A DNA stretch of 40,088 nt from Pseudomonadales bacterium (GTDB lineage: Bacteria; Pseudomonadota; Gammaproteobacteria; Pseudomonadales; UBA7239): NCBI GenBank assembly GCA_020443005.1, contig JAGRJA010000250.1, positions 1 to 40,088 of the forward strand, in the 5' to 3' direction. The position numbers and the translations under genes are program-made. Within the stretch, counting starts at the first letter, position 1. Every line of letters starts with the position of its first letter. The notes beneath the pieces are model-generated. The model saw only the letters and a program-made list of their open reading frames with translations, was not told the DNA's origin and did not search any database. Positions 14,741-40,088 of the stretch are shown piece by piece.

Positions 14741-14820
14741 AGCGGTATTCTTTTTACAAGTGTCTGGATAAACCAGCCTTTCACCAGGGAAGCCCCTCTA
14801 ACGGCAGGGTCGTTTGTTGT

Positions 14821-14866
14821 CCAATATGCCGACAGGCATATTGGACTGTGTTCTTTTCATTTTTTG
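14821..14866 (+). terminator. Perfect 10-bp-stem hairpin plus T-rich tail between ccoP and ccoG
   Basis: CCAATATGCC-gaca-GGCATATTGG (14821-14844) followed by ttcttttcatttttt. Lies 80 nt after the ccoP stop and 45 nt before the ccoG ATG. Confidence 0.6.
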
Positions 14867-14888
14867 CATTGTTTTAGCGTGGTTGCAA

Positions 14889-16310: not shown

Positions 16311-16413
16311 TATCAGCACCTGGAGCTAGCATCACCTGCTGGAGCGGGAGTCAGGCTATCTCCGCCCCGCGTTGCCAAATTTGTTAGACTACGCCAACTA
16401 AAGGGAGCTACCC

Positions 16414-16983
16414 ATGTCGCTATCGTCTCTTCATGAAAAAAACGAGCCAGAACCCTGGTACAAGCAGTTTTGGCCCTGGTTCCTGATTGCTCTGCCCGGC
16501 TCTGTGGTCATTGCCGCTATTGCCACCTTGTACATCGCAATACAAAACCCCCAGCCACTTGTGAAAGAAGAGTATTACAAGGATGGTCTGGCGATTAACC
16601 GGGATATGGAAAAAGAACTGGCCGCCGCCCGGGCGGGTTTGCAGGCACACCTCAGTTTCAGCGAGGACAAAAGAATCATCAACATTGCTCTCAGCCGATT
16701 GAAGGAAAACATGCCATTGCCCGAACAAATCTATCTGGCATTCATTCATCCCGCCGATGACACACTCGACATCAACCTGCTACTCAATCTCGATCAAGAC
16801 AGCTTGAACCGAGGAACCCTATACAGTGGAATAATCGATAATGGTATTGCCACTCAAATCGGCGCCCAGCGCTGGTATATACAAATTGAACCTTCTACAA
16901 ATGACAAAAACGGTTTATGGCTCCTGAAAGGAGAAATTCCATCAGGCACCACATCTGCTGTGATTGGCGAAACACTTGAGTAA
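16414..16983 (+). CDS. ccoH: FixH/CcoH cbb3 oxidase assembly protein
   Basis: 189 aa with N-terminal TM helix (WFLIALPGSVVIAAIATLYIAI). Position between ccoG and ccoI. AAGGGAG SD. Confidence 0.85.
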   Translation: MSLSSLHEKNEPEPWYKQFWPWFLIALPGSVVIAAIATLYIAIQNPQPLVKEEYYKDGLAINRDMEKELAAARAGLQAHLSFSEDKRIINIALSRLKENMPLPEQIYLAFIHPADDTLDINLLLNLDQDSLNRGTLYSGIIDNGIATQIGAQRWYIQIEPSTNDKNGLWLLKGEIPSGTTSAVIGETLE

Positions 16984-16987
16984 AGTC

Positions 16988-25175: not shown

Positions 25176-26024
25176 CTAAAGCCATCGCCAACCGTAAGTG
25201 TTATAAAAGGTGATCGCAGAACGGGCGAACAACCTGATATGGTGCCACCCTTTTTTGGCCGAGTGACCGCCCACATGAATGATTTTCATATCCGGACAAT
25301 AAGCCACCTTTGCCAGCCAGGCCATACGCAAGGAAAGATCGAAATCCTCAAAATAGAGAAAATAATCCTTTGAAAAGCCCCCCACCGACTTCAGCATCTG
25401 TGTTCTTGCCAACATGCAGCAGCCACTGATTATGGGTATTTCCTTACAAGCCCTGCCCGCTGTATAAACATCCTGCATTTCATAGTTTGCCAACCGTTTG
25501 CCGAAAAATCTTTTCACCCAGGATGGCGCAAAGCCCCGCAACAGAAAATCCAGAACCGTGGGAAACCGCTTGCACAAATACAAAGGCCTGTTTTTCTCAT
25601 CCACCACATGAGGCGCAAGCAAACCGACATCAATATTTGCCTGCAGATACGCCACTCCTTTTAAAAGCGCATCCTCCTCAAGAAAAACATCCGGGTTCAG
25701 AATCAGGTGAAAACGGCTTTGTCGGTTTTCAATACAGCGATTGTGACCGCCACCATAACCCAAATTGGTCGTGTTTTTGATGATGTTCACCTGGTCGAAG
25801 CAGGCGCTTAACTGCTCCATACAGCGCTCTGGCAGATTGGCCAGAGAAGTCTGCTGCGGGTGATTATCGAGCAGACAAAGACTCAAACGCTCGCTCTCGG
25901 GAAATGACTTCAGCTTTTCTGCCGCCTTCACAAGGTGCATCAGCGTTTTTTCAAGCACCGATATATCGGTGTCATACAAAACGACAGAGACCGACAAAAG
26001 TACAGCTGGAGCAGAAGAATTCAT
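25176..26024 (-). CDS. Family 2 glycosyltransferase (rhamnosyltransferase-like)
   Basis: SVSVVLYDTD N-terminal strand, LGYGGGHN, NPDVFLEEDAL (DxD-equivalent) and FLYFEDFDLSLR (ED motif). ATG 26024; the ORF-track start 26039 is TTG. Confidence 0.8.
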   Translation of the reverse strand: MNSSAPAVLLSVSVVLYDTDISVLEKTLMHLVKAAEKLKSFPESERLSLCLLDNHPQQTSLANLPERCMEQLSACFDQVNIIKNTTNLGYGGGHNRCIENRQSRFHLILNPDVFLEEDALLKGVAYLQANIDVGLLAPHVVDEKNRPLYLCKRFPTVLDFLLRGFAPSWVKRFFGKRLANYEMQDVYTAGRACKEIPIISGCCMLARTQMLKSVGGFSKDYFLYFEDFDLSLRMAWLAKVAYCPDMKIIHVGGHSAKKGWHHIRLFARSAITFYNTYGWRWL

Positions 26025-26278
26025 TACCGGAGCACACAAACAGATAGAAACACGAAACTATAACCCATACGCTTCCATTTTCGAGAAGAAAATCACCAGA
26101 AACCTTCGGCCGACAAACACTGTCCCCGAGACAAAATCACTTGCCCCGCCTTTCCACAACTTTAGGGGCTCACCCACCTGAAGAGAAAAATGAACTATAT
26201 CCCCTATTCCCTTGCAATTATTTTCCTGCGAAAGCTATTATGACGGGCTATTCTTTTCAACGAAGTGTAAAAATACCA

Positions 26279-27010
26279 ATGCGTCAACCCGAAAGAATCC
26301 TTTGTGTCCTCGGCATGCATCGAAGTGGAACCAGTTGTCTGACCGGCTCCCTGCAGCAAGGCGGCCTTTTTTTGGGAAAACACCATACTTGGAATGAGTA
26401 TAACCGCAAAGGTAATCGGGAGAATCAGGATATCGTTGATCTGCACGAAAATATTTTCAAGGCAAACGGTGTCAGCTGGCATTACCCCGTTCGCTGTTCA
26501 AGCTGGTACGAAAGACTGTTCAAACCCCAGTTGAAGTGGCGAAACAGCGACTACGAGCAGGCCCGAAAAATACTTGATGATTACGCCGACCAACCCATCT
26601 GGGGCTTCAAGGATCCACGCGCCCTGATGCTACTGGACGGATGGCTAAAAGTTGCACCTCACATGGAATTCGTGGGCATATACCGTCATCCGATGGCAGT
26701 AGCACAGTCCTTGCACAACAGGGAAGCACTCAAACTCGAAATAGCCCACGGCCTTGAGTTATGGCTTCAATACAATACTGCCCTCTTCCGGCAATTCAGA
26801 AAAACCCCCTTCCCGCTGCTGAGCTTTGACTGGTCAGAAGAAAAATTTCACGACAAACTGGAACAATTGCACAAGCAACTGGGGCTGGCAGCTCTACCTG
26901 AAGGGCAACGCTTTTATACAGCAGAATTGCACAATGAGAAGATAACCACCGCAGCCTTGCCACCCAAGGTTCAGGCCTTGTATGAAAAATTCCAGGAGAT
27001 TGAATACTAA
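26279..27010 (+). CDS. Sulfotransferase family protein
   Basis: PAPS 5'-phosphosulfate-binding-loop-like motif ILCVLGMHRSGTS seven residues from ATG 26279. Alternative starts at 26240 and 26141 (TTG). Confidence 0.7.
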   Translation: MRQPERILCVLGMHRSGTSCLTGSLQQGGLFLGKHHTWNEYNRKGNRENQDIVDLHENIFKANGVSWHYPVRCSSWYERLFKPQLKWRNSDYEQARKILDDYADQPIWGFKDPRALMLLDGWLKVAPHMEFVGIYRHPMAVAQSLHNREALKLEIAHGLELWLQYNTALFRQFRKTPFPLLSFDWSEEKFHDKLEQLHKQLGLAALPEGQRFYTAELHNEKITTAALPPKVQALYEKFQEIEY

Positions 27011-27011
27011 T

Positions 27012-28091
27012 ATGCCTGAGAACAAATCGCCCAACCTGGCTACAGACAAACCAACGCCCAAAAATATTCCCAACGCGCCAAAGCCGGTTATGTGGTTCGA
27101 CCCCCACAGTATGCCGACGATTCCGTCCAGTGATCCCGGCTACCTCACAAAAAGTCACAAACCCGTGCTGTCCATCATTGTGATGGTTTATAAAATGCCC
27201 GAGCAGGCCCAAAAAACCATCTATTCCCTGTCAACAGCCTATCAACGGGATGTCAGTGAAGCAGACTATGAAATTATTGTTATGGAAAACCCTTCCAATA
27301 ACCTGCTTGGCAAAGAAGCGGCAGAATCAATAGCCAGCAATGTACGCTACATTTTTTACCCGGAAACCCTGCCCACACCAGTAAACGCAATGAATCATGG
27401 TGCTCAACAGGCAAACGGTGACTGGATAGCTGTAATGATCGACGGTGCACGCATGGTCACTCCGGGCATGGTTAACTATATTCTCGCCGCTCGTCGACTT
27501 GCGCCCAGAGTCGTTATCTCGGTACCCGGGTATCACCTTGGCAACAAGGTTCAGCAGGAAGCGATGCTTGAAGGCTACGATGAAACAACCGAAGCCGAAC
27601 TCCTCGACAGTATTAATTGGCCAGAAGACGGCTACCGGCTGTTTGAGATCAGTTGTCTGAGTGGCACCAGTGCCGGTGGCTACTTCAAACCTATCGGCGA
27701 ATGCAACTGCTTCTGTATGTCGCGCGAGGTATGGAACGAGCTAGGCGGCTATGATCCGGGTTTCACGGAAACAGGCGGAGGCCAATGTAACCTCGACCTC
27801 TATAAAAGGGCTGTTGAATTACCGGATACCACACTGGTTACACTCATGGGAGAAGGCTCCTTCCATCAGTTTCACGGTGGCATTACCACCGGAACCAAGG
27901 GCGAGGAACGACTGAAAGCCATGCAGGATCATTTCAACCAATATGCCGCCCTTCGTGGCGGTTCCTATTCATCTCCACTCAAGCGGTCACTGTATCTCGG
28001 CACACTTCCCGACTGTGCTCTCAAGTTTGTCCGGCATTCGGCCAGCGTTGTGATGAAAAACCACGGTGAAATACCTCGCGAACTGAAATAA
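27012..28091 (+). CDS. GT-A (GT2)-like protein, paralog 1 of 5, with Pro-rich N-terminal extension
   Basis: Shares LSIIVMVYKMP, YEIIVMEN, IDGARMVTP, VPGYHLG, W..DGYRLF, GGG.CNL and GEGSFHQFHGG with the other four paralogs. ATG is 1 nt after the upstream stop. Confidence 0.7.
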   Translation: MPENKSPNLATDKPTPKNIPNAPKPVMWFDPHSMPTIPSSDPGYLTKSHKPVLSIIVMVYKMPEQAQKTIYSLSTAYQRDVSEADYEIIVMENPSNNLLGKEAAESIASNVRYIFYPETLPTPVNAMNHGAQQANGDWIAVMIDGARMVTPGMVNYILAARRLAPRVVISVPGYHLGNKVQQEAMLEGYDETTEAELLDSINWPEDGYRLFEISCLSGTSAGGYFKPIGECNCFCMSREVWNELGGYDPGFTETGGGQCNLDLYKRAVELPDTTLVTLMGEGSFHQFHGGITTGTKGEERLKAMQDHFNQYAALRGGSYSSPLKRSLYLGTLPDCALKFVRHSASVVMKNHGEIPRELK

Positions 28092-28128
28092 ACCCCGATA
28101 GCAAGACGCAAGAAGGAATAACCGGAAA

Positions 28129-29154
28129 ATGACAAAAAAACCCATACTCTCAATTATCGTCATTGTCTACAAAATGCCTCGACAAGCAATGAACACCCTG
28201 CTCAGTCTCGCGCTTCCCTACCAGAAAAACGTCAATCCAGAAGAATATGAAGTGATTGTCATTGAAAACAGCTCAGAACAGAACCTGAACGCTGACACAG
28301 TCACAGCTCTCGGCCCGCAATTCCGCTATTTTCTCAGGGAGGAGTCTGGTGTTTCTCCTGTGCCAGCGGTTAATTTCGGTTTTGAACAATGTCAGGGCGA
28401 ATTCATAGGCCTGATCATTGACGGCGCCCGTATGGTCACACCGCGGGTTCTTGAATACGCCATGCTTGGCTATAAAATCACCCGTCAGGCGATTGTTATG
28501 GTACCCGGCTATCATCTGGGCGAAGAAGATCAAAAGTTTCATCTCACCACCGGTCACTCTGCGCAAAAAGAAATCGAAAAACTGGAAGAACTGGACTGGC
28601 AGGAAAACGGTTACCGTCTCTTCAACTTTGCAGCATGGAGTTCCAGTAACCAACGAGGTTACTTCCAACCGATGCAGGAATGTAATTGCCTTTTTGCCTC
28701 AAAGGACAATTTTGACCTTATTGGCCGTGCTGATGAGCGCTTTGATCAGGCTGGCGGCGGCAGCATCAACCTGCATATCTATCGCAGCCTCGGCATGCTA
28801 CCTGAAAGCCAGCTTTTCATACTGCCAGGGGAGGGTTCATTCCACCAGTTTCACGGCGGTGTAACAACCACCGAAATTGAAAACCGTGAAGCCCTGCTAA
28901 AAGCGTTTGATCAACGCCTGGAAGAGATCTGGGGAGGGAGCTTCAAGGCACTGACGAGAGAACCTATGCTGCTTGGCGCTGTCACCCATGCGGCTCAACC
29001 CTTTCTCTCGAAAGCCTCGGAACTGGCAACCCGCCGGTTCCAGCGGCTGACAATCAATAAAAAGGAATTCTGGGAAGATGACAAGGCTTTCGAACGATTC
29101 ACAGAAAACGCTGTCAGTGTTGTCGACGATGGCTATCAGCCTCCGGAAATGTAA
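28129..29154 (+). CDS. GT-A (GT2)-like protein, paralog 2 of 5
   Basis: SIIVIVYKMPRQAMNT, YEVIVIENSS, IDGARMVTPRVLEY, VPGYHLG, GGGSINLHIYR and PGEGSFHQFHGG. Confidence 0.7.
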   Translation: MTKKPILSIIVIVYKMPRQAMNTLLSLALPYQKNVNPEEYEVIVIENSSEQNLNADTVTALGPQFRYFLREESGVSPVPAVNFGFEQCQGEFIGLIIDGARMVTPRVLEYAMLGYKITRQAIVMVPGYHLGEEDQKFHLTTGHSAQKEIEKLEELDWQENGYRLFNFAAWSSSNQRGYFQPMQECNCLFASKDNFDLIGRADERFDQAGGGSINLHIYRSLGMLPESQLFILPGEGSFHQFHGGVTTTEIENREALLKAFDQRLEEIWGGSFKALTREPMLLGAVTHAAQPFLSKASELATRRFQRLTINKKEFWEDDKAFERFTENAVSVVDDGYQPPEM

Positions 29155-29161
29155 TAAACAC

Positions 29162-29443
29162 TCAGGGTAGCTTTTTTTTAGCCATACGCTTCAGTTTCGC
29201 TTTGGCGTATTTGTCGCCCTGATCAGCTGCCTGTTGTAACCAGTACAAATACTGGTCATGACTTTTCTCAACACCATTACCGGCAAAATACATGCGAGCC
29301 ACTTTCTGCTGTGCCTCCAGAACGCCCTGCTCTGCGAGCGGCAGAAGAATCTGAAAGGCCTGATCAAATTCAAAATGCATAAAAGCATTCACACCTTTCT
29401 GCAGCAATTGCATATTTTCATTTTCCCCAGTGGATTTGCTCAT
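29162..29443 (-). CDS. Sel1-like repeat (SLR/TPR-type) protein, 93 aa
   Basis: LAEQGVLEAQQKVARMYFAGNGVEKSHDQYLYWLQQAADQGDKYAKAKL fits the Sel1 repeat consensus. ATG 29443 has an AAGGAG SD; the ORF track extends to 29548. Confidence 0.7.
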   Translation of the reverse strand: MSKSTGENENMQLLQKGVNAFMHFEFDQAFQILLPLAEQGVLEAQQKVARMYFAGNGVEKSHDQYLYWLQQAADQGDKYAKAKLKRMAKKKLP

Positions 29444-29573
29444 AATCTCCTTGCGTTCAGGTTGATTTGCGCCCTGTTTTATTGCATCTGGAAATCGGTT
29501 CAACACACAACTGCCGATGCTATCCATTTTCGCAACAGGAGTGCTCAAGGCAATATTATACGCATTAAACCTG

Positions 29574-30326
29574 CTATACAGCGGGTGTTTTTTTCCAGAT
29601 AGTCACATGTGGCCTGTCACTTTCTCCGACAGGCCGACCGTTGGAATAGTAGAAAGTGGAAATCGATTTTCTCGACATATCCGGCGGGCAGGTCAGTGGC
29701 GTCGGATGCCCATGATAAGTGTCGCTTCCCGTTGAGAAAATGACAGCTCTCCCGGCTAAAGGTGCAACTTTTTTCACGCAGGTTTTCATATCGGCAGTCC
29801 ACAACTCAAGATCACCGCCATAACTCTCTTTCCAGTTCTTGTTCAGGTAAACAATGATATTCAGCCGTCGGTCAAGATCGGTTTCAGGTTGTTTATTATA
29901 GTCAGCGTGCACCATCAAGAATCCACCCGCCTTGCTTTCATGCAAGCCCCCTCCGGCCCGATAGGGGTCGGGAATCAGTGCAGACACACCAGTAAGCGTT
30001 TGCAGAAATGAAATAAACTCGGCCGAATTAAGTTCCCAATAAAAGTGACGAATGGGCAAGCCAACACGAAGCTCCATTGAAACCCAGTGCTTTTTATATT
30101 GCGCTACCGTACCATCTTTGAGTTTTTGTGACTCATCATCGTGATTGTCCCTTTTTTTGGGCTCAGGGAATGTCGCCAGTAACAAATCAATCGATTTCTC
30201 ATCGAGAAAATGATCAATAACGATGTGAGGGAACGGTTCAGCATTCCGGTATTCGTCAGCGTGCTTTCTGGCGAAATCCTGTAGAAAATCAAAATCAAGT
30301 AGAGGCTGGATACCTTGTTGGCTCAT
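29574..30326 (-). CDS. 2OG-Fe(II) oxygenase (prolyl-4-hydroxylase-like)
   Basis: PFPHIVIDHFL N-terminal motif, HxD (VHADYN), distal His (YHGHP) and the 2OG-binding RKS. GGGAGG SD. Confidence 0.8.
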   Translation of the reverse strand: MSQQGIQPLLDFDFLQDFARKHADEYRNAEPFPHIVIDHFLDEKSIDLLLATFPEPKKRDNHDDESQKLKDGTVAQYKKHWVSMELRVGLPIRHFYWELNSAEFISFLQTLTGVSALIPDPYRAGGGLHESKAGGFLMVHADYNKQPETDLDRRLNIIVYLNKNWKESYGGDLELWTADMKTCVKKVAPLAGRAVIFSTGSDTYHGHPTPLTCPPDMSRKSISTFYYSNGRPVGESDRPHVTIWKKTPAV

Positions 30327-30359
30327 GACTTCAAGCTACCTCCCGTAATACACGACAAA

Positions 30360-30995
30360 TCAATAATCCTCGAATGCTTTTTGTCGCTCTTCCAGCGAAC
30401 GGGCACGATCATTGATATAAAAGAAAGCGACCAGCGACCAGGCGGAACCATTTACCGTCGATCGAATTGCGGAAAGCTCTTTTACTGCTGAGAGAAACAA
30501 TTGACCGGGTATCATGGTTTTTATTGTACTGCTCTCGCCTTCATCGGGCATCCGTATAGCTGTTTCAGAAGGCGCATGCGATTCTGCAGCCAACAATATT
30601 TCCACCCGAAGTACCGGGTACAAATCAGTCACCGGATGGCGTAAAAAGGGTAACTGTATTTTCTGGTTGTTCCAGCTCTCAATACCACCACCCACAAGAA
30701 ACGGATCTGGCAACAGAGCCTGAGTACCCGACACAGAGGCAAGGTGACGCAAGGTGGTCGGTGAATGAAGCTCCCAAATCAGCTGTCGAATCAAGGGCGT
30801 CTGCCTAAGTCGGGCCTGGCCTTCAGGGCTTGCAACAACAGAAGCCTGCAAACCTGCCAGACAATCTGCAAACACAGCATGATATTCACGCTTGATGAAA
30901 TCGCCAAGAAACAGGTGCGGGAAGTGTTCCGCATTTTGAAATCGACTGCATTGATACTGCTGAAAATGGCTAACAAGTACAGAAGTATCAACCAT
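30360..30995 (-). CDS. Degenerate paralog of the adjacent 2OG-Fe(II) oxygenase (facial triad lost)
   Basis: Shares NAEHFPHLFLGDFI, WELHS and GTQALLPDPFLVGGGIE with its neighbour. It has HPV instead of HxD and lacks the distal His and the Arg. ATG 30995; the ORF-track start 31040 is GTG. Confidence 0.55.
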   Translation of the reverse strand: MVDTSVLVSHFQQYQCSRFQNAEHFPHLFLGDFIKREYHAVFADCLAGLQASVVASPEGQARLRQTPLIRQLIWELHSPTTLRHLASVSGTQALLPDPFLVGGGIESWNNQKIQLPFLRHPVTDLYPVLRVEILLAAESHAPSETAIRMPDEGESSTIKTMIPGQLFLSAVKELSAIRSTVNGSAWSLVAFFYINDRARSLEERQKAFEDY

Positions 30996-31187
30996 TATTG
31001 CCGGCAACTTTTTCGCCACAGACACGCCACTCCATCCCACCCCGGGATTGCAAGATCATTAACGGTTCACTTATTCAGGAATTCACTCTAACATACAACA
31101 CATGAATCAGAAAAATGTTGATACAGGGCAAGCACTTGCCATCAGTTTATTCACGACAGAAAACCCCGAACACAGACAGCTTATAAC

Positions 31188-32177
31188 ATGAAGGCACCAT
31201 TGAAGATATCTGTCATTGTTATTGTTTATCGTATGCCGAGACAGGCTATTAATACGATTTACAGCTTGTCAGCCCTGCACCAGAGAAACATCAAGGAAGA
31301 AGAATACGAAATCATTGTTGTCGAAAACAGGTCCGAAAATATGATTGATCAGCAACAACTCCTTGCACTGGGTAAAAACATTCGTTATTTCAGCCGCGAA
31401 GAGAGTGGCCACTCACCAGCTGCCGCAATCAATTATGGTTTTAGCCTCTGTCGCGCAGATTACATTGGCCTGTTGATTGACGGCGCCCGCATGGTGACAC
31501 CGCGTGTTCTCGAATACGCCCTTCAGGCCAAAAGCATTGATAAAAATTCGATTTTTGCCGTTCCGGGCTACAACCTTGGCGCCGAAAAACAACACATTGA
31601 TTCTCACTACAGTGAAGAAAAGGAAATCCGTTTGCTCTCGAAAACCAACTGGCAGCAAAACGGATACAGGCTGTTTGATATTGCCAATATCGGCGAAGCT
31701 AATCCCCGCGGATTTTTCCAGCCTTTCATGGAAAACAACTGTCTATTTTCATCGCTGGGCAGCTATGAAAACATAGGTTTCGCCGATGAGAATTTTCATT
31801 TTCTGGGTGGCGGTGGACTAAACCTTCATATGTTTCGGCTTTTGGGTACATTAGCCAATGCGCCTTACCTTTTTGTCACGCCAGGTGAAGGCTCTTTTCA
31901 CCAGTATCACGGTGGCGTTTCCACAACTCCGCGAGCCGACAGGGAAGAAATACTGGCCCCCCCCCGTAAACAGTTGGTGAGTTACTGGGGAGGCGATACT
32001 TTCAAGGCGCTGCAAAGAGAGCCTTTTCTGCTGGGCGCTGTCAACAGCCACGCACAGAAATTTCTGCTCTATTCCAGCCAGCGAGCACTGAAACGCTTCG
32101 AGCGCAAAACCCGTAATAATGAGCCATTCTGGCCATCCGACTTCAAACAAAAGCGTTATACGGAGCATTTCAGTTGA
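31188..32177 (+). CDS. GT-A (GT2)-like protein, paralog 3 of 5 (contains C9 tract)
   Basis: SVIVIVYRMPRQAINT, YEIIVVENRS, IDGARMVTPRVLEY, VPGYNLG, GGGGLNLHMFR and PGEGSFHQYHGG. Confidence 0.7.
   Translation: MKAPLKISVIVIVYRMPRQAINTIYSLSALHQRNIKEEEYEIIVVENRSENMIDQQQLLALGKNIRYFSREESGHSPAAAINYGFSLCRADYIGLLIDGARMVTPRVLEYALQAKSIDKNSIFAVPGYNLGAEKQHIDSHYSEEKEIRLLSKTNWQQNGYRLFDIANIGEANPRGFFQPFMENNCLFSSLGSYENIGFADENFHFLGGGGLNLHMFRLLGTLANAPYLFVTPGEGSFHQYHGGVSTTPRADREEILAPPRKQLVSYWGGDTFKALQREPFLLGAVNSHAQKFLLYSSQRALKRFERKTRNNEPFWPSDFKQKRYTEHFS
31957..31965 (+). repeat. Homopolymeric C9 tract inside paralog 3 coding sequence
   Basis: Read directly: ctg gcc ccc ccc cgt (LAPPR). It is the longest G/C homopolymer I found in the window. 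Confidence 0.9.
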
Positions 32178-33178
32178 ATCAACCCATACCCAAAATATCG
32201 GTTGTTATCATTGTTTACAACATGGCTCGTCAAGCCATGAATACATTGTATTCATTGAGCCCTGAATATCAGAAAAACATTGATGCCAACGACTACGAAA
32301 TTATTGTGGTTGAAAATCATTCCTGCAACATGCTCGATAAACAGCAGGTTGAAATGCTTTCGCCAAATATCCGATATTTTTGCAGGGAAGAAAAAGGTGT
32401 TTCTCCCGTTCCGGCAATCAACTTCGGTTTTCAAAAATGTCGCGCCCCCATGATTGGCCTGATGATTGATGGTGCTCGCATGGTCACACCGCGCATTATC
32501 GAATACACCTTAATGGCTCAACACATCGATGCGAATGCTGTCGTCGCCGTACCCGGCTACAATCTTGGCCCCGCCGAACAGCAATATGCAGAGCAGTTGA
32601 ATTATAACGAAGCGATTGAAACCGCTATGCTCAGCAAGACAAACTGGCAAAAAAATGGCTACCGTCTTTTTGATATCAGCAGTATTGGTGGCGCCAATCC
32701 CACCGGAGTCATCAATCCTTTGATGGAGTCAAATTGTGTATTCGCCTCAAAAAAAAGCTTTGAAAAAATCGGATGGGCCGACGAGCAATTTACTTACCCC
32801 GGTGGCGGTTCGGTTAACTTGCACATCTTTCGCTCATTGGGCATGCTGCCTGAAAGCAATGCCTATTTTATCTTGCCCGGAGAGGCCTCTTTTCACCAAT
32901 TGCACGGTGGAGTCACCACTGCCAACTCAAGCCAACGCGAAGCCATGTTGAAAAAGTTTGCCCAACAATTGAATAATCTATGGGGTGTATTCAGTGTACT
33001 CAAACGCGAACCCATTTTACTCGGTGCTGTTACCAGTCACGCACAACCCTTTTTGAAATTTTCAGCTGATGAAGCGATGATTCGCTTTGATCGCCTATCC
33101 GAAAAGGGTGTTGATCACTGGGTGGACGATGTCGCCCGAAAGCAAAAAATCGGCAGCCAAGGAAAACCATACCCATGA
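32174..33178 (+). CDS. GT-A (GT2)-like protein, paralog 4 of 5
   Basis: SVVIIVYNMARQAMNT, YEIIVVENHS, IDGARMVTPRIIEY, VPGYNLG, GGGSVNLHIFR and PGEASFHQLHGG. The TTG start overlaps the paralog 3 stop (TTGA), and no in-frame ATG lies upstream of the conserved core. Confidence 0.7.
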   Translation: MNQPIPKISVVIIVYNMARQAMNTLYSLSPEYQKNIDANDYEIIVVENHSCNMLDKQQVEMLSPNIRYFCREEKGVSPVPAINFGFQKCRAPMIGLMIDGARMVTPRIIEYTLMAQHIDANAVVAVPGYNLGPAEQQYAEQLNYNEAIETAMLSKTNWQKNGYRLFDISSIGGANPTGVINPLMESNCVFASKKSFEKIGWADEQFTYPGGGSVNLHIFRSLGMLPESNAYFILPGEASFHQLHGGVTTANSSQREAMLKKFAQQLNNLWGVFSVLKREPILLGAVTSHAQPFLKFSADEAMIRFDRLSEKGVDHWVDDVARKQKIGSQGKPYP

Positions 33179-34167
33179 CCAGAAACCCAAAGCTATCGAT
33201 CGTGCTGATCGTTTACAAGATGCCGCGACAGGCGCTGAATACGATTTACAGCCTTTCCATAAACCACCAGAAAAATGTGCGGGAAACTGATTACGAAATC
33301 ATCGTGGTAGAAAACCTTTCCAGCGATAACCTCGATGGAGATGCAGTTTGTGCAATCGGCAACAACATACGCTACTTTCCAAGAAATGAAACCAGCGCCT
33401 CTCCGGTTGGTGCAATCAACTTCGGCATTGAACAATGCCGGGCACCGGCGATATGTCTGATGATTGACGGCGCCAGAATGGTGACGCCTCGCGTCATTGA
33501 GTATGCACTGATGGCTCGCAACATCGATCAGGATTTTCTGTTGGCCGTTCCGGGTTACAATATCGGCCCCCATGAGCACCAATACAACATCTCAAGGCAA
33601 TACGATCAGGAAACTGAAAAACGCTTGCTGGAAACCGTAAAATGGAAAACCAACGGTTATCGCCTGTTTGATATCTGCAATATCAGCGGTGCCAATGAAA
33701 AAGGCATTTTTCACCCGTTGCTGGAGTGCAATTGCATGTTTTCTTCTGCACAAAACTTTGAGCGTATCGGTGGTGCAAACATGGATTTCCAGCTTCCGGG
33801 AGGAGGGTCAATCAACCTTCACATGTTCCGTCAACTCGGCATGCTGAAACAGACCCGATACTACTTCATCACACCCGGGGAAGGTTCATTCCACCAGTTT
33901 CATGGCGGCATAACCACACAGGAAGCCGAAGATCGTGAGGAAGTACTTGAATCCCATCGCAAACAGCTTCATTCCTACTGGGAAGGTGGTTTTCATGCCA
34001 TGCGACGGGAGCCTATTCTTCTTGGCGCCGTTGGTAGCAAGGCACAATCATTTCTGCATTACTCCTCAAAAAAAGCGCGCAAACGCTTTGGGTGGATGCG
34101 AAACGGAGGAAAACATCCCTGGATTGACGACTTCAATCTGTTTGCATCTGCCAATTTCAACACTTAA
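33175..34167 (+). CDS. GT-A (GT2)-like protein, paralog 5 of 5
   Basis: SIVLIVYKMPRQALNT, YEIIVVENLS, IDGARMVTPRVIEY, VPGYNIG, GGGSINLHMFR and PGEGSFHQFHGG. ATGA overlap with the paralog 4 stop. Confidence 0.7.
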   Translation: MTRNPKLSIVLIVYKMPRQALNTIYSLSINHQKNVRETDYEIIVVENLSSDNLDGDAVCAIGNNIRYFPRNETSASPVGAINFGIEQCRAPAICLMIDGARMVTPRVIEYALMARNIDQDFLLAVPGYNIGPHEHQYNISRQYDQETEKRLLETVKWKTNGYRLFDICNISGANEKGIFHPLLECNCMFSSAQNFERIGGANMDFQLPGGGSINLHMFRQLGMLKQTRYYFITPGEGSFHQFHGGITTQEAEDREEVLESHRKQLHSYWEGGFHAMRREPILLGAVGSKAQSFLHYSSKKARKRFGWMRNGGKHPWIDDFNLFASANFNT

Positions 34168-34257: not shown

Positions 34258-35043
34258 ATGGCGATTTATGCACCCCCTTCAATCCGCAGATTTTCAGCTG
34301 ACTTTATGTGCTTCAGTACATGGGTAGATCATCTGGCATTTGGTTATGACATTGTCGCCGCATTAAGGCCCGCACTTACTGTAGAACTCGGCACTCAGGG
34401 TGGGCTTTCCTTTTTCTGTTTCTGCCAGTCGTTAAAAGAGAATGAAATTGATGGTATTGCCTATGCCGTCGACACCTGGGAAGGAGAAGAGCATACAGGC
34501 AAGTATGATGAATCCGTTTTCAATAGCGTGCAGGAACACGCCAGAAAAAATCATGCTGGACGAGCCTATCTCATGCGCATGCTTTTTCAGGAAGCTATCA
34601 ATCACTTCAGTGACGAATCCATTGATCTACTGCATATTGATGGCTTGCACACCTACGACGCCGTGAAAGAGGATTTCACAACCTGGTTACCCAAGGTAAG
34701 ACCCGGAGGTGTTATCCTCTTTCATGACATTCAGGCCAGGATGATGGATTTTGGCGCCTGGAAATTCTGGGAAGAATTATCTGCTTCCGGAGAATACAAA
34801 ACCATGGAATTCAAACACGGTTTCGGTCTGGGCGTGCTTCAGAAAAACGGTGGGCCGCAAAACGAACATACTCTGCTCAAACTCCTTTTTGACGCGTCAC
34901 CGGATGAGCACGGTGAATTACGCGCATTCTACATCCATGCAGCAAAATTCCTTGAACTCCAGCGCAAAGTTGAACGGCAGGAGCGCATGAAGAAAAAACG
35001 ACAGGCCGAAATGCAGGCAAAACAAAAAAACGCACAAGCGTAA
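34258..35043 (+). CDS. Class I SAM-dependent methyltransferase (Methyltransf_24/CmcI-like by recollection) with basic C-terminal tail
   Basis: Motif I-like VELGTQGGLS, IDLLHIDGLHTYDAVKEDF and VRPGGVILFHD. Lys/Arg/Gln-rich tail is RKVERQERMKKKRQAEMQAKQKNAQA. Confidence 0.7.
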   Translation: MAIYAPPSIRRFSADFMCFSTWVDHLAFGYDIVAALRPALTVELGTQGGLSFFCFCQSLKENEIDGIAYAVDTWEGEEHTGKYDESVFNSVQEHARKNHAGRAYLMRMLFQEAINHFSDESIDLLHIDGLHTYDAVKEDFTTWLPKVRPGGVILFHDIQARMMDFGAWKFWEELSASGEYKTMEFKHGFGLGVLQKNGGPQNEHTLLKLLFDASPDEHGELRAFYIHAAKFLELQRKVERQERMKKKRQAEMQAKQKNAQA

Positions 35044-35052: not shown

Positions 35053-35847
35053 TTAAAGACGACTCTCAAGCACCCCTGAAAAAAATTCAGCCGTTTCCTC
35101 AAGAAGCGGTTGAGCCCAGGGAATACGAACAAAGTCCTCCTGACTTACACCCCTCATTTTGTTCACATAACTTTCAAGTAAACCACAGAGTTTTTCAGAA
35201 GAAAAATCGCCATCAAGCCCCCTGTCAAGTGAAACACTGGAGATGGGGCTCTTGTTGCTCACTGTCATCGCCAGGTCAAGATGAGGAGGTGGTACAGCCA
35301 GCTGGCTGAAAGCCAAGGCTGCATCCTTGTGCTGAATGACACTGGGCAGCCTGCTGTTGCTATCGAGCCACTGACTGCTAACAGCATAATTATTCGTCAT
35401 GCAACGCCCATTCAAACCCCAGATAAAAACCGGATGTTGTTGATTCGGGCTACCTATATTAGCCGAACGCCAAAGTATTGCAGGAAGGGCTTCCTGATCA
35501 AGCTGACCCAGATGAACAGCAATATCGGGATCAATCCAGTCATCATCGTCAATAAACAAATAGTAGGCATTGGCCACAATCGGTATATTTTTATAGCCCT
35601 TGAAAGGGATAAAAAGTGTATTTGCTGCTTCTCTGATATTCTTCTCGGAAAGGTTTTTTAAGGCTTGCCTCACATTGCAATACGATATCTGAAAGGTCCT
35701 GTTCCACAGATGATAAAGTTTTTCAAGATAATTCAAGGGCTTGCCCCAAAGCCTACAAAAATCACGGGACTGTTGCAAAAAAGCGGTCTCGCTCATCCCC
35801 CCCCAATCAGGAGTTTGCCGCTGTACAACCACCACACTATTGCTCAT
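35053..35847 (-). CDS. Hypothetical protein (264 aa) with DDDD motif; contains G8 tract at codons 14-16
   Basis: The ORF starts 7 nt after the upstream gene stop. YYLFIDDDDWIDPD is reminiscent of a GT-A DxD motif, but no family is recognised. Confidence 0.5.
   Translation of the reverse strand: MSNSVVVVQRQTPDWGGMSETAFLQQSRDFCRLWGKPLNYLEKLYHLWNRTFQISYCNVRQALKNLSEKNIREAANTLFIPFKGYKNIPIVANAYYLFIDDDDWIDPDIAVHLGQLDQEALPAILWRSANIGSPNQQHPVFIWGLNGRCMTNNYAVSSQWLDSNSRLPSVIQHKDAALAFSQLAVPPPHLDLAMTVSNKSPISSVSLDRGLDGDFSSEKLCGLLESYVNKMRGVSQEDFVRIPWAQPLLEETAEFFSGVLESRL
35807..35814 (-). repeat. Homopolymeric G8 tract (C8 on + strand) near the 5' end of the 264-aa ORF
   Basis: Read directly: tgg ggg ggg atg (WGGM) on the minus strand. 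Confidence 0.9.
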
Positions 35848-35854
35848 CGGGCTG

Positions 35855-38071
35855 TCAGGAATTCATCACATCGTGAATAGGTTTGCGGGAGAGCTTTCTT
35901 TTTATTGTTCGTTGCAGCTCAAAGGGAATGAGACGAACCAGCGTTCTTATCACCGGCTTTTCCCGCAATAACAATAAAAATCTCAGCAACTTTTCACGCT
36001 TGCCAGGGTCGAGCACCTCCTGTTTTTCTCCATGCGGGAAAGAGAGAGTCCGCATCGTTTCCATATCAGAGGCAAGAGTCGACAAGTTTCTGGCAGAAGG
36101 CTGCGTGTCAACAATAAAGTCCTCGGCATAACGAAAAACAGCATCGCCCGATGCGCAATTGTCCCACACCGTTTGCTCGTAGCTGTGTTCAAGCATCCAT
36201 TCCCTCAGCTCAATGAAAGCATTTTTCCATTGCTCGGGTTCATCATTCCATCGACGAATATAACTCAATGGTCTGCCTGCGAGTCGCTCTTCAAAGGAAC
36301 CAAGATTTGATGCCATAATCGGCCTACCGGACTCGAGGGCAGAACTCAAAACATAGCAATAGGTTTCGGGCCACTGGGCCGGAAACCAAATCACATGAGG
36401 GTTAATCTGCTCGATCAGACCTTGAAGTTCATCATTTTTATAAGCACCGTGACTTGTAATCGTTTCACGCATGGGTTTATAGGCGTAACCGATCAAATGA
36501 AACTCCAGTCGATCCAGTGGGTCCCTATGGCACGCTGTATGCTCGAACTTATCTGCCCCCTTCTCGCGACTGACAGCACCTATCACTGCGATACGCAATT
36601 TTTCGTTTTCTGCAACAGGAACAACATAGGGTGCCGGATAGGATTTGATCATTTCGGCATCCGGATGGTAAGCAACTGTAATCGACAAATGAGGGAAATA
36701 ACTGTTATAGATTTGGGCGCACGCTTTACTGGGAGAAAAAATCCGCTTTGCACCGTCAAGCACGCTCCGACTAAAGACCTGCCAGGAAGAAAGTGAATAG
36801 CCCGTTGGCAAGGGATATGATTCAGCGCACTTTACAGGTCTGTCTTTTGGGTCTTCTACAAAAATCCCTTGCTTGTCGGTCAATGTCGGATTGGCATTGA
36901 TAAAATAATAGTCATGCAATGTCACATCATAAGGAAGTGCCAATATGCGGGGCAGCTCAAGCGCCTTTACGGGCATTCTCATGACATGATGGATATGTAT
37001 TCGTTCAACGCCAAGATAAACCAGCGTGTCGACGAGCAATGAGAAATCGCTCCTCATAGAAAAAAACAAATGCAGGTCAAAATGTCGTGCTGTAAAACAT
37101 AGCTCAAGACCTTCTTCGCCATTGGGCTTGAGCACCAGAATATTGATTTTATCCGAGAAAAAAGCCTGCATTTCATTGATATGGTTCTGGATACCACCGC
37201 CCATATCATGTGTCATAAACAGAATTGTTCTGCGGCTTTCTTCCGCAAGCATATCAAGCTGGATTTTTTGCCGTAAATGTCGGGCCGGATCTTGCTGAAT
37301 ATGCTCATGAACCAGACGGTGATAGTGGGGATATTTTTTATCGAGTATTTGCATGGCGTTTTCAACACGCTCAAGCTTCTCATGAGAAAAACTCACCCCT
37401 CCCTCATGAAACACAAACACATTCGTACACAAGGCATGCCGCAAGCCAACGGCCTCACACCTCAGACAAAAATCGTTTTCCTCACCATAACCTCGCCCAA
37501 AAGCCTCTTCATCAAAATAACCCACTTTTTTCAAAGCAGATCGCTTGATATACATACAGAATCCAACAGCGGTCGGCATAAAGATCGGTTCGGAAAAGTG
37601 GTATTTGGAAAAAAAACTGTCGATCTCGCTGACACTTTTATCCCCAACAAGCTCATTACTTTTACACAGCACCGGAAAACTGCAAATTTCAGCGTTATTG
37701 CTAAATGGGGTTACTGTCGCAATCGCATCGTCAGAGATGGCACATTCATACAATCGATCTAGCCAGTTATTGGCAACGATGGTATCGCTGTTAACAAGCA
37801 CAACATCCCTGTCCTCATGCAAGCGCATGCCTTTGTTAACCGTAGCCACAAACCCCAGATTTTGCTCATTCGTCAACAGGGTGAATTTTCCGGTATCCGC
37901 ATGCTCCATCAGGTAATCGGTCAGTTTCTGATTGGGCGAGCCATCATTGATAATGATAATCTCGCAATCATGTGCGTAATCCGATGCAAGAACCGAATCT
38001 ATACAGCGTACTGTCTGATCGAAACCATCATATACCGGAATAATTATATCGACGGGAGGGTTTACACTCAT
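35855..38071 (-). CDS. Bifunctional-looking glycosyltransferase (N-terminal GT2 domain, C-terminal GT1/GT4-like domain)
   Basis: N-terminus has VDIIIPVYDG, EIIIINDGSP, VLVNSDTIV and EENDFCLR. The middle has THDMGGGIQNH. The C-terminus has IAVIGAVSREKG...WPETYCYVLSSALESGRP (E-x7-E-like). ATGA overlap with the upstream gene. Confidence 0.8.
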   Translation of the reverse strand: MSVNPPVDIIIPVYDGFDQTVRCIDSVLASDYAHDCEIIIINDGSPNQKLTDYLMEHADTGKFTLLTNEQNLGFVATVNKGMRLHEDRDVVLVNSDTIVANNWLDRLYECAISDDAIATVTPFSNNAEICSFPVLCKSNELVGDKSVSEIDSFFSKYHFSEPIFMPTAVGFCMYIKRSALKKVGYFDEEAFGRGYGEENDFCLRCEAVGLRHALCTNVFVFHEGGVSFSHEKLERVENAMQILDKKYPHYHRLVHEHIQQDPARHLRQKIQLDMLAEESRRTILFMTHDMGGGIQNHINEMQAFFSDKINILVLKPNGEEGLELCFTARHFDLHLFFSMRSDFSLLVDTLVYLGVERIHIHHVMRMPVKALELPRILALPYDVTLHDYYFINANPTLTDKQGIFVEDPKDRPVKCAESYPLPTGYSLSSWQVFSRSVLDGAKRIFSPSKACAQIYNSYFPHLSITVAYHPDAEMIKSYPAPYVVPVAENEKLRIAVIGAVSREKGADKFEHTACHRDPLDRLEFHLIGYAYKPMRETITSHGAYKNDELQGLIEQINPHVIWFPAQWPETYCYVLSSALESGRPIMASNLGSFEERLAGRPLSYIRRWNDEPEQWKNAFIELREWMLEHSYEQTVWDNCASGDAVFRYAEDFIVDTQPSARNLSTLASDMETMRTLSFPHGEKQEVLDPGKREKLLRFLLLLREKPVIRTLVRLIPFELQRTIKRKLSRKPIHDVMNS

Positions 38072-39771: not shown

Positions 39772-40088
39772 TTATTTAACTGGCTTGTATCCATAGTTTT
39801 CATAAAATGGTTGTGTGAGGTCCTGAACGAGTGCGATTTCTTTCGAATTAAGCAACTGCTTGTATTTGTTTTTTTCTTTATGTGTGTCAACACTGGAATA
39901 ATTCATGATTGAAGAATCCTCTCCAATAAATTCTAGAATTTTCTCGATATAGGGCTTTGGTTTTGCCACCATTGATTCATATTCAATTTCCAGCAGTCTG
40001 TCACCGTAATGTTTTTTGAACTCATCAATAATGATCATCGTTTCAGTCCAATAATTTATCCCGCCGATCACGCTGTGTTTTGCCATTA
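39772..40088 (-). CDS. Probable sulfotransferase, C-terminal part only (gene runs off the right edge)
   Basis: ...LLEIEYESMVAKPKPYIEKILEFIGED... resembles the C-terminal segment of sulfotransferases. No N-terminal PAPS loop is present, so the ATG at 40086 is probably internal. Confidence 0.5.
   Translation of the reverse strand, partial: MAKHSVIGGINYWTETMIIIDEFKKHYGDRLLEIEYESMVAKPKPYIEKILEFIGEDSSIMNYSSVDTHKEKNKYKQLLNSKEIALVQDLTQPFYENYGYKPVK

What the first reader, a model, noticed from the sequence alone, without database searches (positions are those of the whole stretch)
29162..31040. Inverted three-gene module splitting the paralog array: active 2OG oxygenase, catalytically dead paralog and Sel1-repeat protein
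The paralog array is interrupted between copies 2 and 3 by three minus-strand genes.

- **Intact oxygenase (29574-30326).** It has the HxD...H triad (VHADYN, YHGHP) and the RKS 2OG-binding residues.
- **Degenerate paralog (30360-30995).** It keeps the N-terminal and central scaffold (NAEHFPH, WELHS, ALLPDPFLVGGG). It has HPV in place of HxD, a short deletion, and no distal His or Arg. It looks like a pseudoenzyme partner.
- **Sel1 protein.** A 93-aa Sel1-repeat protein, a typical protein-protein adaptor, follows.

Enzyme/pseudoenzyme pairs plus an adaptor suggest a substrate-recognition complex, which would fit a protein or peptide substrate.
Basis: partly seen in the sequence, partly recalled or inferred. 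Interest (0 to 1): 0.65.

Follow-up and report, generated by a model that had tools for sequence, protein, structure and literature searches.

The report
Oxygenase, dead paralog and Sel1 operon
Three co-transcribed genes encode an iron/2-oxoglutarate oxygenase, a conserved non-catalytic copy of it and a tiny Sel1 adaptor, and in every relative found they sit beside the same sugar-transferase genes, so this is a real, undescribed bacterial enzyme/pseudoenzyme module whose substrate is still unknown.

Summary
Three minus-strand genes sit between copies 2 and 3 of five GT2-like paralogs.

- **Oxygenase (29574-30326).** It keeps H140/D142/H205 and R219/S221, which are invariant in 22/22 sampled homologs.
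- **Upstream protein "X" (30360-31019).** It is a true homolog (BLASTP E=8e-12; profile-profile 99.5%). The model is a prolyl-hydroxylase-type fold (pLDDT 87). Across 38 family members the triad is gone, Arg is replaced by Trp in 36, and the substrate hairpin is deleted.
- **X is not decaying.** It has invariant motifs and pN<pS, although dN is 3-4 times that of its neighbours. It has no Pfam or NCBIfam match, about 37 known sequences, and occurs in one MAG among 185,579 species genomes.
- **Co-occurrence.** X is directly followed by the oxygenase in 11/11 loci, and Sel1 follows in 9/9. Three GT2 genes plus a Methyltransf_24 gene are divergent upstream in every locus long enough.

The setting is a soluble glycan-assembly cluster. 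The closest analogue is Tpa1/Ofd1/OGFOD1 plus Nro1/Ett1, here split into separate genes. A physical complex and a protein substrate remain untested; the context favours a glycoconjugate.

The parts
29162..29443 (-). Sel1-repeat mini-protein (93 aa, about two repeats, no hydrophobic segment)
   Evidence: ORF and Shine-Dalgarno. Pfam Sel1 30.5 bits, and 9/9 orthologs match Sel1. The ortholog profile hits PDB Sel1-repeat proteins at E=1e-37. It is 56-79% identical to orthologs, with 41 invariant columns. It follows the oxygenase in 9/9 loci.
29574..30326 (-). Catalytically competent Fe(II)/2OG oxygenase (250 aa), Tpa1/OGFOD1-like prolyl-hydroxylase fold
   Evidence: PF13640 E=1.4e-18. H140, D142, H205, R219 and S221 are invariant in homologs. 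AF2 model pLDDT 92, pTM 0.91. Top Foldseek hits are Tpa1, OGFOD1, PasI, DdPhyA and PHD2. 2774 homologs were found.
30360..31019 (-). 'X': non-catalytic DSBH paralog of the oxygenase (219 aa from GTG 31019; the ORF could extend to 31040)
   Evidence: BLASTP E=8e-12 to the oxygenase and hhalign 99.5%. No Pfam or NCBIfam hit. AF2 model pLDDT 87, pTM 0.84. Foldseek hits are PHD2, Tpa1, P3H1 and PPHD. The triad is absent and Arg is replaced by Trp in 36/38 members. Family alignment with invariant LLPDP, RHPxTxL and ND.
31020..31187 (.). Divergent intergenic region between X and the first GT2 of the conserved trio
   Evidence: Same divergent layout in every locus. The promoter scan is at chance level, so no element is claimed.
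31188..34167 (+). Three GT2-like glycosyltransferase paralogs (329, 334, 330 aa), always divergent from X
   Evidence: Pfam Glycos_transf_2. One-to-one orthologs in L006 at 63-73% identity, against 55-56% identity to each other. Present in all loci long enough.
34258..35043 (+). Methyltransf_24 (TylF-like) methyltransferase, conserved partner of the GT2 trio
   Evidence: PF13578 E=1e-27. Present in all loci long enough, including the distant L011-L013.
26982..29154 (+). Two further GT2-like paralogs (369 and 341 aa), convergent on the Sel1 gene
   Evidence: Pfam. Orthologs in L006 (77% and 69%) lie 4-8 kb from the core there.
25176..27010 (.). GT2 (287 aa, minus strand) and Sulfotransfer_3-like protein (289 aa, plus strand) at the left edge of the cluster
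   Evidence: Pfam. The same pair accompanies copies 1-2 in L006 and L017.
35053..39756 (-). 264-aa unknown protein with a DDDD motif, 738-aa GT2-family protein, and a 562-aa N-terminal sulfotransferase with a C-terminal coiled coil
   Evidence: Pfam. Coiled-coil repeats and the absence of TM segments. Collinear homologs in L018 and L013.
39772..40088 (-). C-terminal 104 aa of a third sulfotransferase, cut by the window end
   Evidence: 55% identical to the L012 sulfotransferase that lies next to ABC_tran and ABC2_membrane genes.

Best explanation
X, the oxygenase and Sel1 form one conserved operon that encodes a three-part oxygenase unit.

**Shown.**
- The 250-aa protein has everything a working Fe(II)/2OG oxygenase of the prolyl-hydroxylase fold needs.
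- X is a paralog with the same fold. It has lost the 2-His-1-carboxylate triad, the 2OG-anchoring Arg (now Trp) and the substrate hairpin.
- X is nevertheless kept under purifying selection.
- The third gene is a two-repeat cytoplasmic Sel1 adaptor.
- The three genes are inherited together, tightly spaced or overlapping. They are always placed divergently from three GT2-like transferases and a Methyltransf_24 methyltransferase, inside a cluster of soluble transferases.

**Inferred.**
- X and Sel1 are non-catalytic subunits that hold or target the oxygenase. This is how the dead C-terminal DSBH domain of Tpa1/Ofd1/OGFOD1 and its helical-repeat partner Nro1/Ett1 are thought to work.
- The oxygenase oxidises (most simply hydroxylates) a residue of the glycoconjugate that the neighbouring transferases build, methylate and sulfate.
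- Whether the atom attacked belongs to a sugar, a substituent or a protein acceptor is unresolved.
For: - **Active-site residues.** They are intact and invariant in the enzyme and absent in 38 X-family members: 0 His at the first His column, 7/38 at the distal His, Trp for Arg in 36/38. The profile-profile alignment agrees.
- **Fold.** X folds confidently as a DSBH and resembles PHD2, Tpa1, P3H1 and PPHD. The hairpin strands of the enzyme (E64-67, E73-81) have no counterpart in X (helices only).
- **Constraint on X.** It has 18 invariant and 24 nearly invariant columns in 37 sequences. pN<pS, with dN 3-4 times that of the oxygenase, Sel1, GT2 and MT24 genes for the same locus pairs.
- **Co-occurrence.** X is followed by the oxygenase in 11/11 loci, Sel1 follows in 9/9, and the GT2 trio plus MT24 is present in all loci long enough (gene tables).
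- **A paralogous partner is a general habit of this enzyme family.** Shorter dead partners occur in L012/13 and L009/10, and fully equipped partners in L011 and L004.
- **Glycan context.**
  - GT2, sulfotransferase and MT24 assignments come from Pfam.
  - The cluster includes a coiled-coil sulfotransferase and no protein with a TM segment.
  - An ABC-2 exporter lies in the collinear L012/13 cluster.
  - A GT47-oxygenase fusion exists, P0262.
- **Precedent.** The OGFOD1/Tpa1 CTD lacks a metal site and binds Nro1/Ett1, which has been proposed as a substrate-recognition module (PMC4396695).
Against: - No direct evidence that the three proteins bind each other; the complex prediction could not be run.
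- X evolves 3-4 times faster than its neighbours, which is unusual for an obligate structural subunit.
- X keeps X-specific invariant polar residues (K43, E83, R91/H92, R127/H128, R138/E140, N203/D204). These could form a new ligand-binding or catalytic site rather than an interface.
- No exporter, priming transferase or sugar-nucleotide gene is visible in the window or within 10 kb in the X-family loci. The glycan pathway is therefore inferred partly from more distant relatives.
- All closest solved relatives with a known macromolecular substrate act on proteins.
Confidence: 0.6

Rival explanations
1. The module is a protein hydroxylase system. The oxygenase hydroxylates a proline (or other residue) of a target protein, X and Sel1 recognise that protein, and the neighbouring soluble GT2s then build an O-glycan on the new hydroxyl. 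This would resemble the cytoplasmic Skp1 hydroxyproline glycosylation pathway. It is the first reader's reading.
For: - The closest solved folds are protein prolyl hydroxylases: Tpa1, OGFOD1, DdPhyA (the Skp1 hydroxylase), PHD2 and PPHD.
- All 14 cluster proteins lack TM segments, and no exporter or priming transferase is seen near X-family loci.
- Sel1/TPR adaptors typically bind proteins.
- A GT47-oxygenase fusion of apparently eukaryotic origin exists.
- TSP3/RCC1 giant proteins lie next to the cluster in L006 and L017.
Against: - No conserved candidate substrate gene is present in the loci (and the gene tables).
- Related clusters carry an ABC-2 exporter and an Acyl_transf_3/SGNH acyltransferase, typical of exported polysaccharides. 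L011 carries GtrA and UbiA, which are polyprenyl-linked sugar functions.
- A coiled-coil terminator-like protein points to polymer length control.
- PasI and PolD, with the same fold, act on sugar-phosphate nucleosides.
Confidence: 0.25
2. X is not a passive partner. It is a neo-functionalised protein: a metal-independent enzyme (cupin-like epimerase, isomerase or lyase) or a small-molecule or glycan-binding sensor that uses a rebuilt pocket.
For: - X-specific invariant polar residues line the former active-site strands: R127-H128 after beta-II, R138 and E140 on beta-III, W194-S195 on beta-VIII, and N203-D204.
- The cluster has no recognisable sugar-nucleotide-modifying enzyme.
Against: - Fast protein evolution relative to all neighbours.
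- Strict adjacency and frequent overlap with the oxygenase gene.
- Shorter dead partners in related clusters lack most of these residues yet keep the same position.
- No sequence match to any solved protein at a significant E-value (best 0.048, to an unrelated regulator).
Confidence: 0.12
3. X is a decaying relic of a tandem duplication with no function of its own.
For: - It has lost all catalytic residues.
- Its dN is 3-4 times that of its neighbours.
- The window and L001 copies carry an extra 5-residue deletion.
Against: - Intact ORFs of similar length in 37 sequences that are only 27-56% identical.
- 18 invariant columns.
- pN<pS.
- A confident fold prediction.
- A C-terminal Tyr in 35/37 members.
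Confidence: 0.03

Closest known systems
Tpa1p / Ofd1 / OGFOD1 with Nro1/Ett1 (eukaryotic uS12 prolyl hydroxylases)
   Same: - An active prolyl-hydroxylase-type DSBH is paired with a second DSBH that lacks the metal site, plus a helical-repeat partner proposed to recognise the substrate (PMC4396695).
- Tpa1 and OGFOD1 are the top structural matches of the window enzyme (TMq 0.60-0.65).
- Tpa1 gives the best TM-score for X (0.60).
- JGI names for homologs say 'Tpa1-like'.
   Different: - Here the two DSBH units are separate genes, with the dead one encoded first.
- The system is bacterial, whereas the paper states the OGFOD1 subfamily is eukaryote-only.
- The helical partner is a 93-aa Sel1 protein, not Nro1.
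- The genomic setting is a glycosyltransferase cluster, not ribosome biology.
- Sequence identity to the solved structures is only 16-18%.
Single-domain bacterial and protist prolyl 4-hydroxylases (PPHD acting on EF-Tu, DdPhyA acting on Skp1, B. anthracis P4H)
   Same: PF13640-type DSBH, HxD...H triad and Arg, and weak sequence matches (6t8m E=4e-4, 4iw3 E=3.5e-3). DdPhyA works upstream of cytoplasmic glycosyltransferases (own knowledge of the Skp1 pathway).
   Different: Those enzymes have no dead paralog partner. Identity is low and the substrate here is unknown.
PasI / PolD (2OG oxygenases acting on high-carbon sugar-phosphate nucleosides)
   Same: Same fold class, with TM-scores normalised to the target of 0.68-0.70. 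PasI (9ei6) is also a weak sequence hit. They show that this fold can act on sugars.
   Different: They belong to nucleoside-antibiotic pathways, have no partner proteins, and share only 17-18% identity.
Pseudoenzyme activators of their active paralogs (for example the trypanosome AdoMetDC prozyme)
   Same: A catalytically dead paralog retained next to, or together with, the active enzyme (PMC5201418 abstract).
   Different: A different fold and chemistry. Activation by X is only a hypothesis here.
ABC-transporter-dependent O-polysaccharide assembly with coiled-coil terminators (E. coli O9a WbdD)
   Same: Soluble transferases plus a modifying enzyme fused to a C-terminal coiled coil (the 562-aa protein). 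WbdD regulates chain length and carries a coiled coil (PMC3482155). An ABC-2 exporter is present in the collinear L012/13 cluster.
   Different: The terminator-like protein here has a sulfotransferase head. No exporter is visible inside the window. No 2OG oxygenase module is described for those systems in the papers retrieved.

Membership tests
Fe(II)/2OG-dependent oxygenases, PF13640 (prolyl-hydroxylase-like): the 250-aa protein | DSBH fold with an HxD/E...H metal triad | tested here: met
   PF13640 E=1.4e-18, above the cut-off. H140, D142 and H205 are invariant in homologs. Model and Foldseek hits.
Fe(II)/2OG-dependent oxygenases, PF13640: the 250-aa protein | Basic residue that binds the 2OG C5 carboxylate (the Arg of RxS on beta-VIII) | tested here: met
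   R219 and S221 are invariant in 22/22 sampled homologs and in 116 aligned sequences.
Fe(II)/2OG-dependent oxygenases, PF13640: the 250-aa protein | 2OG-dependent turnover | not testable with these tools
   Needs a biochemical assay.
Fe(II)/2OG-dependent oxygenases: protein X | DSBH fold homologous to the family | tested here: met
   hhalign 99.5%. Model pLDDT 87. Foldseek hits are PHD2, Tpa1, P3H1 and PPHD at probability 1.00.
Fe(II)/2OG-dependent oxygenases: protein X | HxD/E...H triad and 2OG-binding Arg | tested here: not met
   Window X has Q122/P124 at the HxD columns, Ser or Ile at the distal His, and W194 at the Arg position. Across the family: 0/38 His at the first His column, 7/38 at the distal His, 36/38 Trp at the Arg position. 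X is therefore a homolog but not a functional member.
Tpa1/Ofd1/OGFOD1 subfamily | Catalytic N-terminal DSBH and metal-free C-terminal DSBH in one polypeptide | tested here: not met
   They are two separate genes, with the dead one upstream. The architecture is described in PMC4396695.
Tpa1/Ofd1/OGFOD1 subfamily | Hydroxylation of ribosomal protein uS12 | not testable with these tools
   No assay is possible. The genomic context is glycosyltransferases, not translation genes.
Sel1 repeat proteins (PF08238) | Sel1 repeat consensus | tested here: met
   30.5 bits against a cut-off of 30.7 for the window protein alone, which is marginal. All 9/9 orthologs match, and the ortholog profile hits solved Sel1 proteins at E=1e-37.
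Pseudoenzyme (dead paralog retained by selection) | Homology to an enzyme, loss of catalytic residues, evidence of purifying selection | tested here: met
   homology; loss of residues; invariant motifs, pN<pS.
Pseudoenzyme (dead paralog retained by selection) | Demonstrated lack of catalysis and a defined non-catalytic role | not testable with these tools
   Needs biochemistry.
ABC-transporter-dependent glycan assembly cluster | ABC-2 type exporter (Wzm/Wzt-like) encoded with the transferases | tested here: inconclusive
   None is found in the window. An exporter is present next to the orthologous sulfotransferase in the collinear L012/13 cluster, and the window ends inside that sulfotransferase.
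ABC-transporter-dependent glycan assembly cluster | Soluble or peripheral glycosyltransferases plus a chain-modifying or terminating enzyme with a coiled coil | tested here: met
   GT2 hits. No TM segments, and a sulfotransferase with a roughly 230-aa coiled coil.

The most novel reading that the evidence does not exclude
The operon is the recognition and hydroxylation head of a bacterial cytoplasmic hydroxy-amino-acid O-glycosylation pathway.

- The dead DSBH and the Sel1 protein would select a protein acceptor. Sel1 may be docked on the invariant C-terminal Tyr tail of X.
- The active oxygenase would create the hydroxyl.
- The adjacent soluble GT2 trio, methyltransferase and sulfotransferases would build and cap the glycan.

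This would be a prokaryotic counterpart of the Skp1 or extensin hydroxyproline-glycosylation systems, and a split-gene ancestor-like form of the Tpa1/OGFOD1 two-DSBH architecture.
Probability: 0.12. Interest if true: 0.85.

Novelty: new variant of a known kind. Interest (0 to 1): 0.55.

Why it matters
- **Dead partners of 2OG oxygenases.** They are known as fused domains in eukaryotic Tpa1/OGFOD1 enzymes, and their role there is still debated. This module offers the same logic as three small, separately encoded bacterial proteins, so each part could be deleted, purified and recombined.
- **A new family.** The work defines a protein family with no database model (X), and shows that a paralogous partner, dead or alive, is a general habit of this oxygenase clade.
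- **An unexplained chemistry step.** An oxygenase is tied to glycan-building genes in uncultured marine-type Gammaproteobacteria. This points to an oxidative step in the synthesis of methylated or sulfated glycoconjugates that current pathway schemes do not include.

Tried and rejected
- **Complex prediction.** The heterodimer could not be tested, and model coordinates are not returned, so conserved residues could not be mapped in 3D.
- **Wider sampling.** The metagenome scan with X patterns gave only 3 loci, and the genome scan only 1.
- **Literature.** Searches for a described bacterial dead 2OG paralog or for this cluster type found nothing relevant.
- **Promoter and terminator scan of 28900-31400.** Counts were at chance level, so no regulatory element is claimed.
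- **Origin of X.** The X profile scores enzyme-type and partner-type active paralogs equally (49.7-70.8 bits). Which copy degenerated is unresolved.
- **Oxygenase-methyltransferase fusion.** The C-terminal domains of P0189 and P0299 have no significant BLAST match to the window MT24 and only a faint Pfam hit (E=0.19). This is kept as a hint only.
- **dN/dS.** Synonymous sites are saturated, so ratios are unreliable. Only pN<pS and relative dN are used.
- **Shifted triad.** Rejected. Many X members carry an 'H-x-A-E' stretch, but it lies in an insertion, does not align with the HxD columns, and is absent from the window protein.
Full report
**Observation.** The window carries three adjacent minus-strand ORFs between 29162 and 31040. 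They lie between two groups of plus-strand GT2-like genes.
- One group is 26982-28091 and 28129-29154.
- The other group is 31188-32177, 32174-33178 and 33175-34167.
- All five match Pfam Glycos_transf_2 and are 37-56% identical to each other.
- G+C content is uniform across the region, so nothing marks the three genes as foreign.

**The enzyme.** The 250-aa product of 29574-30326 matches PF13640 (2OG-FeII_Oxy_3) at E=1.4e-18.
- Its VH140AD142YN, TYH205GH207P and R219KS221 residues sit in columns that are invariant in 22/22 sampled homologs and in a 116-sequence alignment.
- The family is large: 2774 hits, many at 50-80% identity, some labelled 'Tpa1-like proline 4-hydroxylase' by JGI.
- Sequence matches to solved structures are weak and all are prolyl-4-hydroxylase-type entries.
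- The AlphaFold2 model is confident (pLDDT 92, pTM 0.91).
- Its best structural neighbours are Tpa1p and OGFOD1 (TMq 0.60-0.65).
- Next come PasI and PolD, which act on sugar-phosphate nucleosides, and then DdPhyA, PHD2 and PPHD.
- The fold therefore does not decide between a protein and a sugar substrate.

**The dead paralog, X: homology and fold.** The product of 30360-31019 has no Pfam or NCBIfam match.
- It is 26% identical to the enzyme over 151 residues (E=8e-12).
- The two families align profile-to-profile with 99.5% probability (E=2e-22, 199 columns).
- Its model is confident (pLDDT 87, pTM 0.84).
- The model matches PHD2, Tpa1 (TMq 0.60), a Burkholderia 2OG oxygenase, P3H1 and PPHD.

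**X: loss of catalytic features.** In a joint alignment the enzyme's H140 and D142 face Q122 and P124 of X. The distal His faces Ser or Ile, and R219 faces W194.
- Across 38 X-family sequences, none has His at the first His column, 7 have His at the distal position, and 36 have Trp at the Arg position.
RHPVTDL aligns with KQPETDL, five residues downstream.
- X also lacks about 20 residues that form a beta-hairpin in the enzyme model (strands 64-67 and 73-81). X has only helices there.
- In OGFOD1 the equivalent hairpin lines the substrate groove (PMC4396695).

**X is selected, rare and undescribed.**
- A word-based search found a single relative. A profile of four orthologs found 37, all from metagenomes or MAGs and none with a Pfam domain.
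- An exhaustive HMM search of 1.84 billion representatives gave only 8 clusters below E=1e-30. After that come shorter dead relatives (185-213 aa) and then active oxygenases.
- Only one of 185,579 species genomes carries X, a Pseudomonadales MAG.
- The family alignment has 18 invariant and 24 nearly invariant columns: LLPDP, RHPxTxL, R138/E140, W194-S195 and N203-D204.
- For the same locus pairs, dN of X is 3-4 times that of the oxygenase, Sel1, GT2 and methyltransferase genes. For the window against L001 it is 0.58 against 0.15, 0.16 and 0.21.
- pN stays below pS. Synonymous sites are saturated, so ratios are only indicative.
- X is thus fast-evolving but constrained, not a relic.

**Sel1.** From ATG 29443, preceded by AAGGAG, the third gene encodes 93 aa with no hydrophobic segment.
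- Nine orthologs of 84-93 aa are 56-79% identical to it, with 41 invariant columns.
- All match Pfam Sel1, and their profile hits solved Sel1-repeat proteins at E=1e-37.

**Co-occurrence.** All fetched loci were scanned with HMMs for X, the oxygenase, Sel1, the GT2 paralogs and the methyltransferase.
- X is immediately followed by the oxygenase on the same strand in 11/11 distinct X-family loci.
- Sel1 follows in 9/9 loci long enough.
- Three GT2 paralogs plus Methyltransf_24 lie divergently upstream in every locus long enough.
- Genes overlap or are a few bases apart in most loci, as expected for co-translated partners.
- The five GT2 copies are old paralogs with one-to-one orthologs in L006 (63-77%). 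There, copies 1-2 lie 4-8 kb away.
- The conserved feature is therefore the divergent pairing with the GT2 trio, not the splitting of an array.

**A partner is a habit of this enzyme clade.**
- Relatives at about 50% identity also have a paralog directly upstream.
- In L012/13 it is a 166/185-aa dead one (P, I, E, V, C at the catalytic columns).
- In L009/10 it is a P0165-type dead one.
- In L011 it is a 286-aa copy with all catalytic residues.
- L004 has two fully equipped copies in tandem.
- Which lineage X descends from could not be resolved.

**Context.** The cluster runs from about 25176 to the window end.
- It comprises a GT2 and a sulfotransferase, GT2 x2, the module, GT2 x3 and Methyltransf_24.
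- It continues with a 264-aa unknown protein, a 738-aa GT2-family protein and a 562-aa protein with a sulfotransferase head and a roughly 230-aa coiled coil.
- It ends with the last 104 residues of another sulfotransferase.
- None of 14 proteins has a TM-like segment.
- The order sulfotransferase / coiled-coil protein / large GT2 is collinear with L013. There the next genes are ABC_tran, ABC2_membrane and an Acyl_transf_3/SGNH acyltransferase.
- An exporter just beyond position 40088 is therefore predicted but not seen.
- A modifying enzyme fused to a coiled coil recalls WbdD of E. coli O9a (PMC3482155).
- A 953-aa protein fuses an Exostosin GT47 domain to a domain of this very oxygenase family (205 bits). 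That is independent support for a link with glycosyltransferases.

**Mechanism.**
- *Shown:* a competent oxygenase, a constrained paralog without catalytic equipment, a Sel1 adaptor, and strict co-inheritance with transferases.
- *Inferred:* X and Sel1 are non-catalytic subunits that stabilise or target the oxygenase. The oxygenase oxidises the glycoconjugate built by the neighbours.
- *Speculative:* 35 of 37 X proteins end in Tyr despite variable tails. The shorter dead partners do not, and L012/13 lack Sel1. The tail could therefore be the Sel1 docking site, as TPR domains bind C-terminal EEVD peptides (own knowledge).

**Comparison and novelty.** The nearest known arrangement is Tpa1/Ofd1/OGFOD1.
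- That arrangement has a catalytic DSBH, a metal-free DSBH and a helical-repeat partner, Nro1/Ett1, proposed as a substrate-recognition module.
- The present module fails that subfamily's defining features. Its two DSBH units are not one polypeptide, their order is reversed, it is bacterial, and its setting is different.
- It works like that system but is not a member of it.
- No description of a separately encoded dead 2OG paralog in bacteria was found.
- I rate it a new variant of a known kind.

**Limits.** No complex prediction could be run and no model coordinates are returned. Saturated synonymous sites prevent reliable dN/dS. The substrate is unknown, and exporter presence is inferred by synteny.

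Noticed in passing
window 30360-30365 (last codons of X); alignment A3: 35 of 37 X-family proteins end in a C-terminal Tyr although the preceding tail varies. Gene overlap does not force this. The shorter dead partners lack it, and the one such cluster seen in full (L012/13) has no Sel1 gene. The tail may be a docking peptide for the Sel1 protein.
   Followed up: partly
window 38068-39756 (-) and 39772-40088 (-): The 562-aa protein combines a sulfotransferase-like head with a roughly 230-aa repetitive coiled coil, an architecture like the WbdD ruler. The window ends inside another sulfotransferase whose L012/13 ortholog (55% identity) lies next to ABC_tran/ABC2_membrane genes, so an exporter probably lies just beyond the window.
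   Followed up: partly
P0262 (953 aa), P0189/P0299 (546/552 aa): Fusion proteins of this oxygenase family. P0262 is Exostosin GT47 + oxygenase and looks eukaryotic. P0189 and P0299 are oxygenase + a roughly 300-aa domain with a GxGxG motif and a faint full-length Methyltransf_24 match (E=0.19).
   Followed up: partly
L004 7429-9043; L011 7144-8738: Tandem pairs in which both 2OG paralogs keep all catalytic residues. L004 sits beside P450, Rieske and rubredoxin genes with no glycosyltransferases. L011 sits beside MT24, GT2, PhyH, UbiA and GtrA genes.
   Followed up: partly
L009 818-1417, L010 225-824, L012 7504-8004, L013 7447-8004; P0161-P0173: A second, shorter class of dead DSBH partners (166-213 aa; motifs QHPxTxLY and YYSPD). 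Each one seen in context lies directly upstream of an oxygenase of this family.
   Followed up: partly
window 29152-29164 and 29444-29573: The stop codons of the convergent GT2 (28129-29154) and Sel1 genes are only 7 nt apart, leaving no room for terminators. The 130-nt gap between the oxygenase stop and the Sel1 start is unique to the window; orthologs range from overlap to an 18-nt gap.
   Followed up: no
window 6225-7817 (-); L006 20005-20708; L017 3031-6066: Proteins with thrombospondin type-3 repeats (with RCC1 or DUF4185 in the loci) lie 17 kb from the cluster in the window and directly beside or inside it in L006 and L017. They could be surface proteins related to the glycan, or coincidence.
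   Followed up: no
window 11630-19429 and 2076-10222: The left half of the window holds housekeeping respiratory genes: a COX1-family oxidase subunit, FixG, FixH and a P-type ATPase, as in cbb3 oxidase maturation. It also holds two cytochrome P450 genes, an extradiol dioxygenase-like gene, HemN and a Crp-family regulator. None appears related to the module.
   Followed up: no
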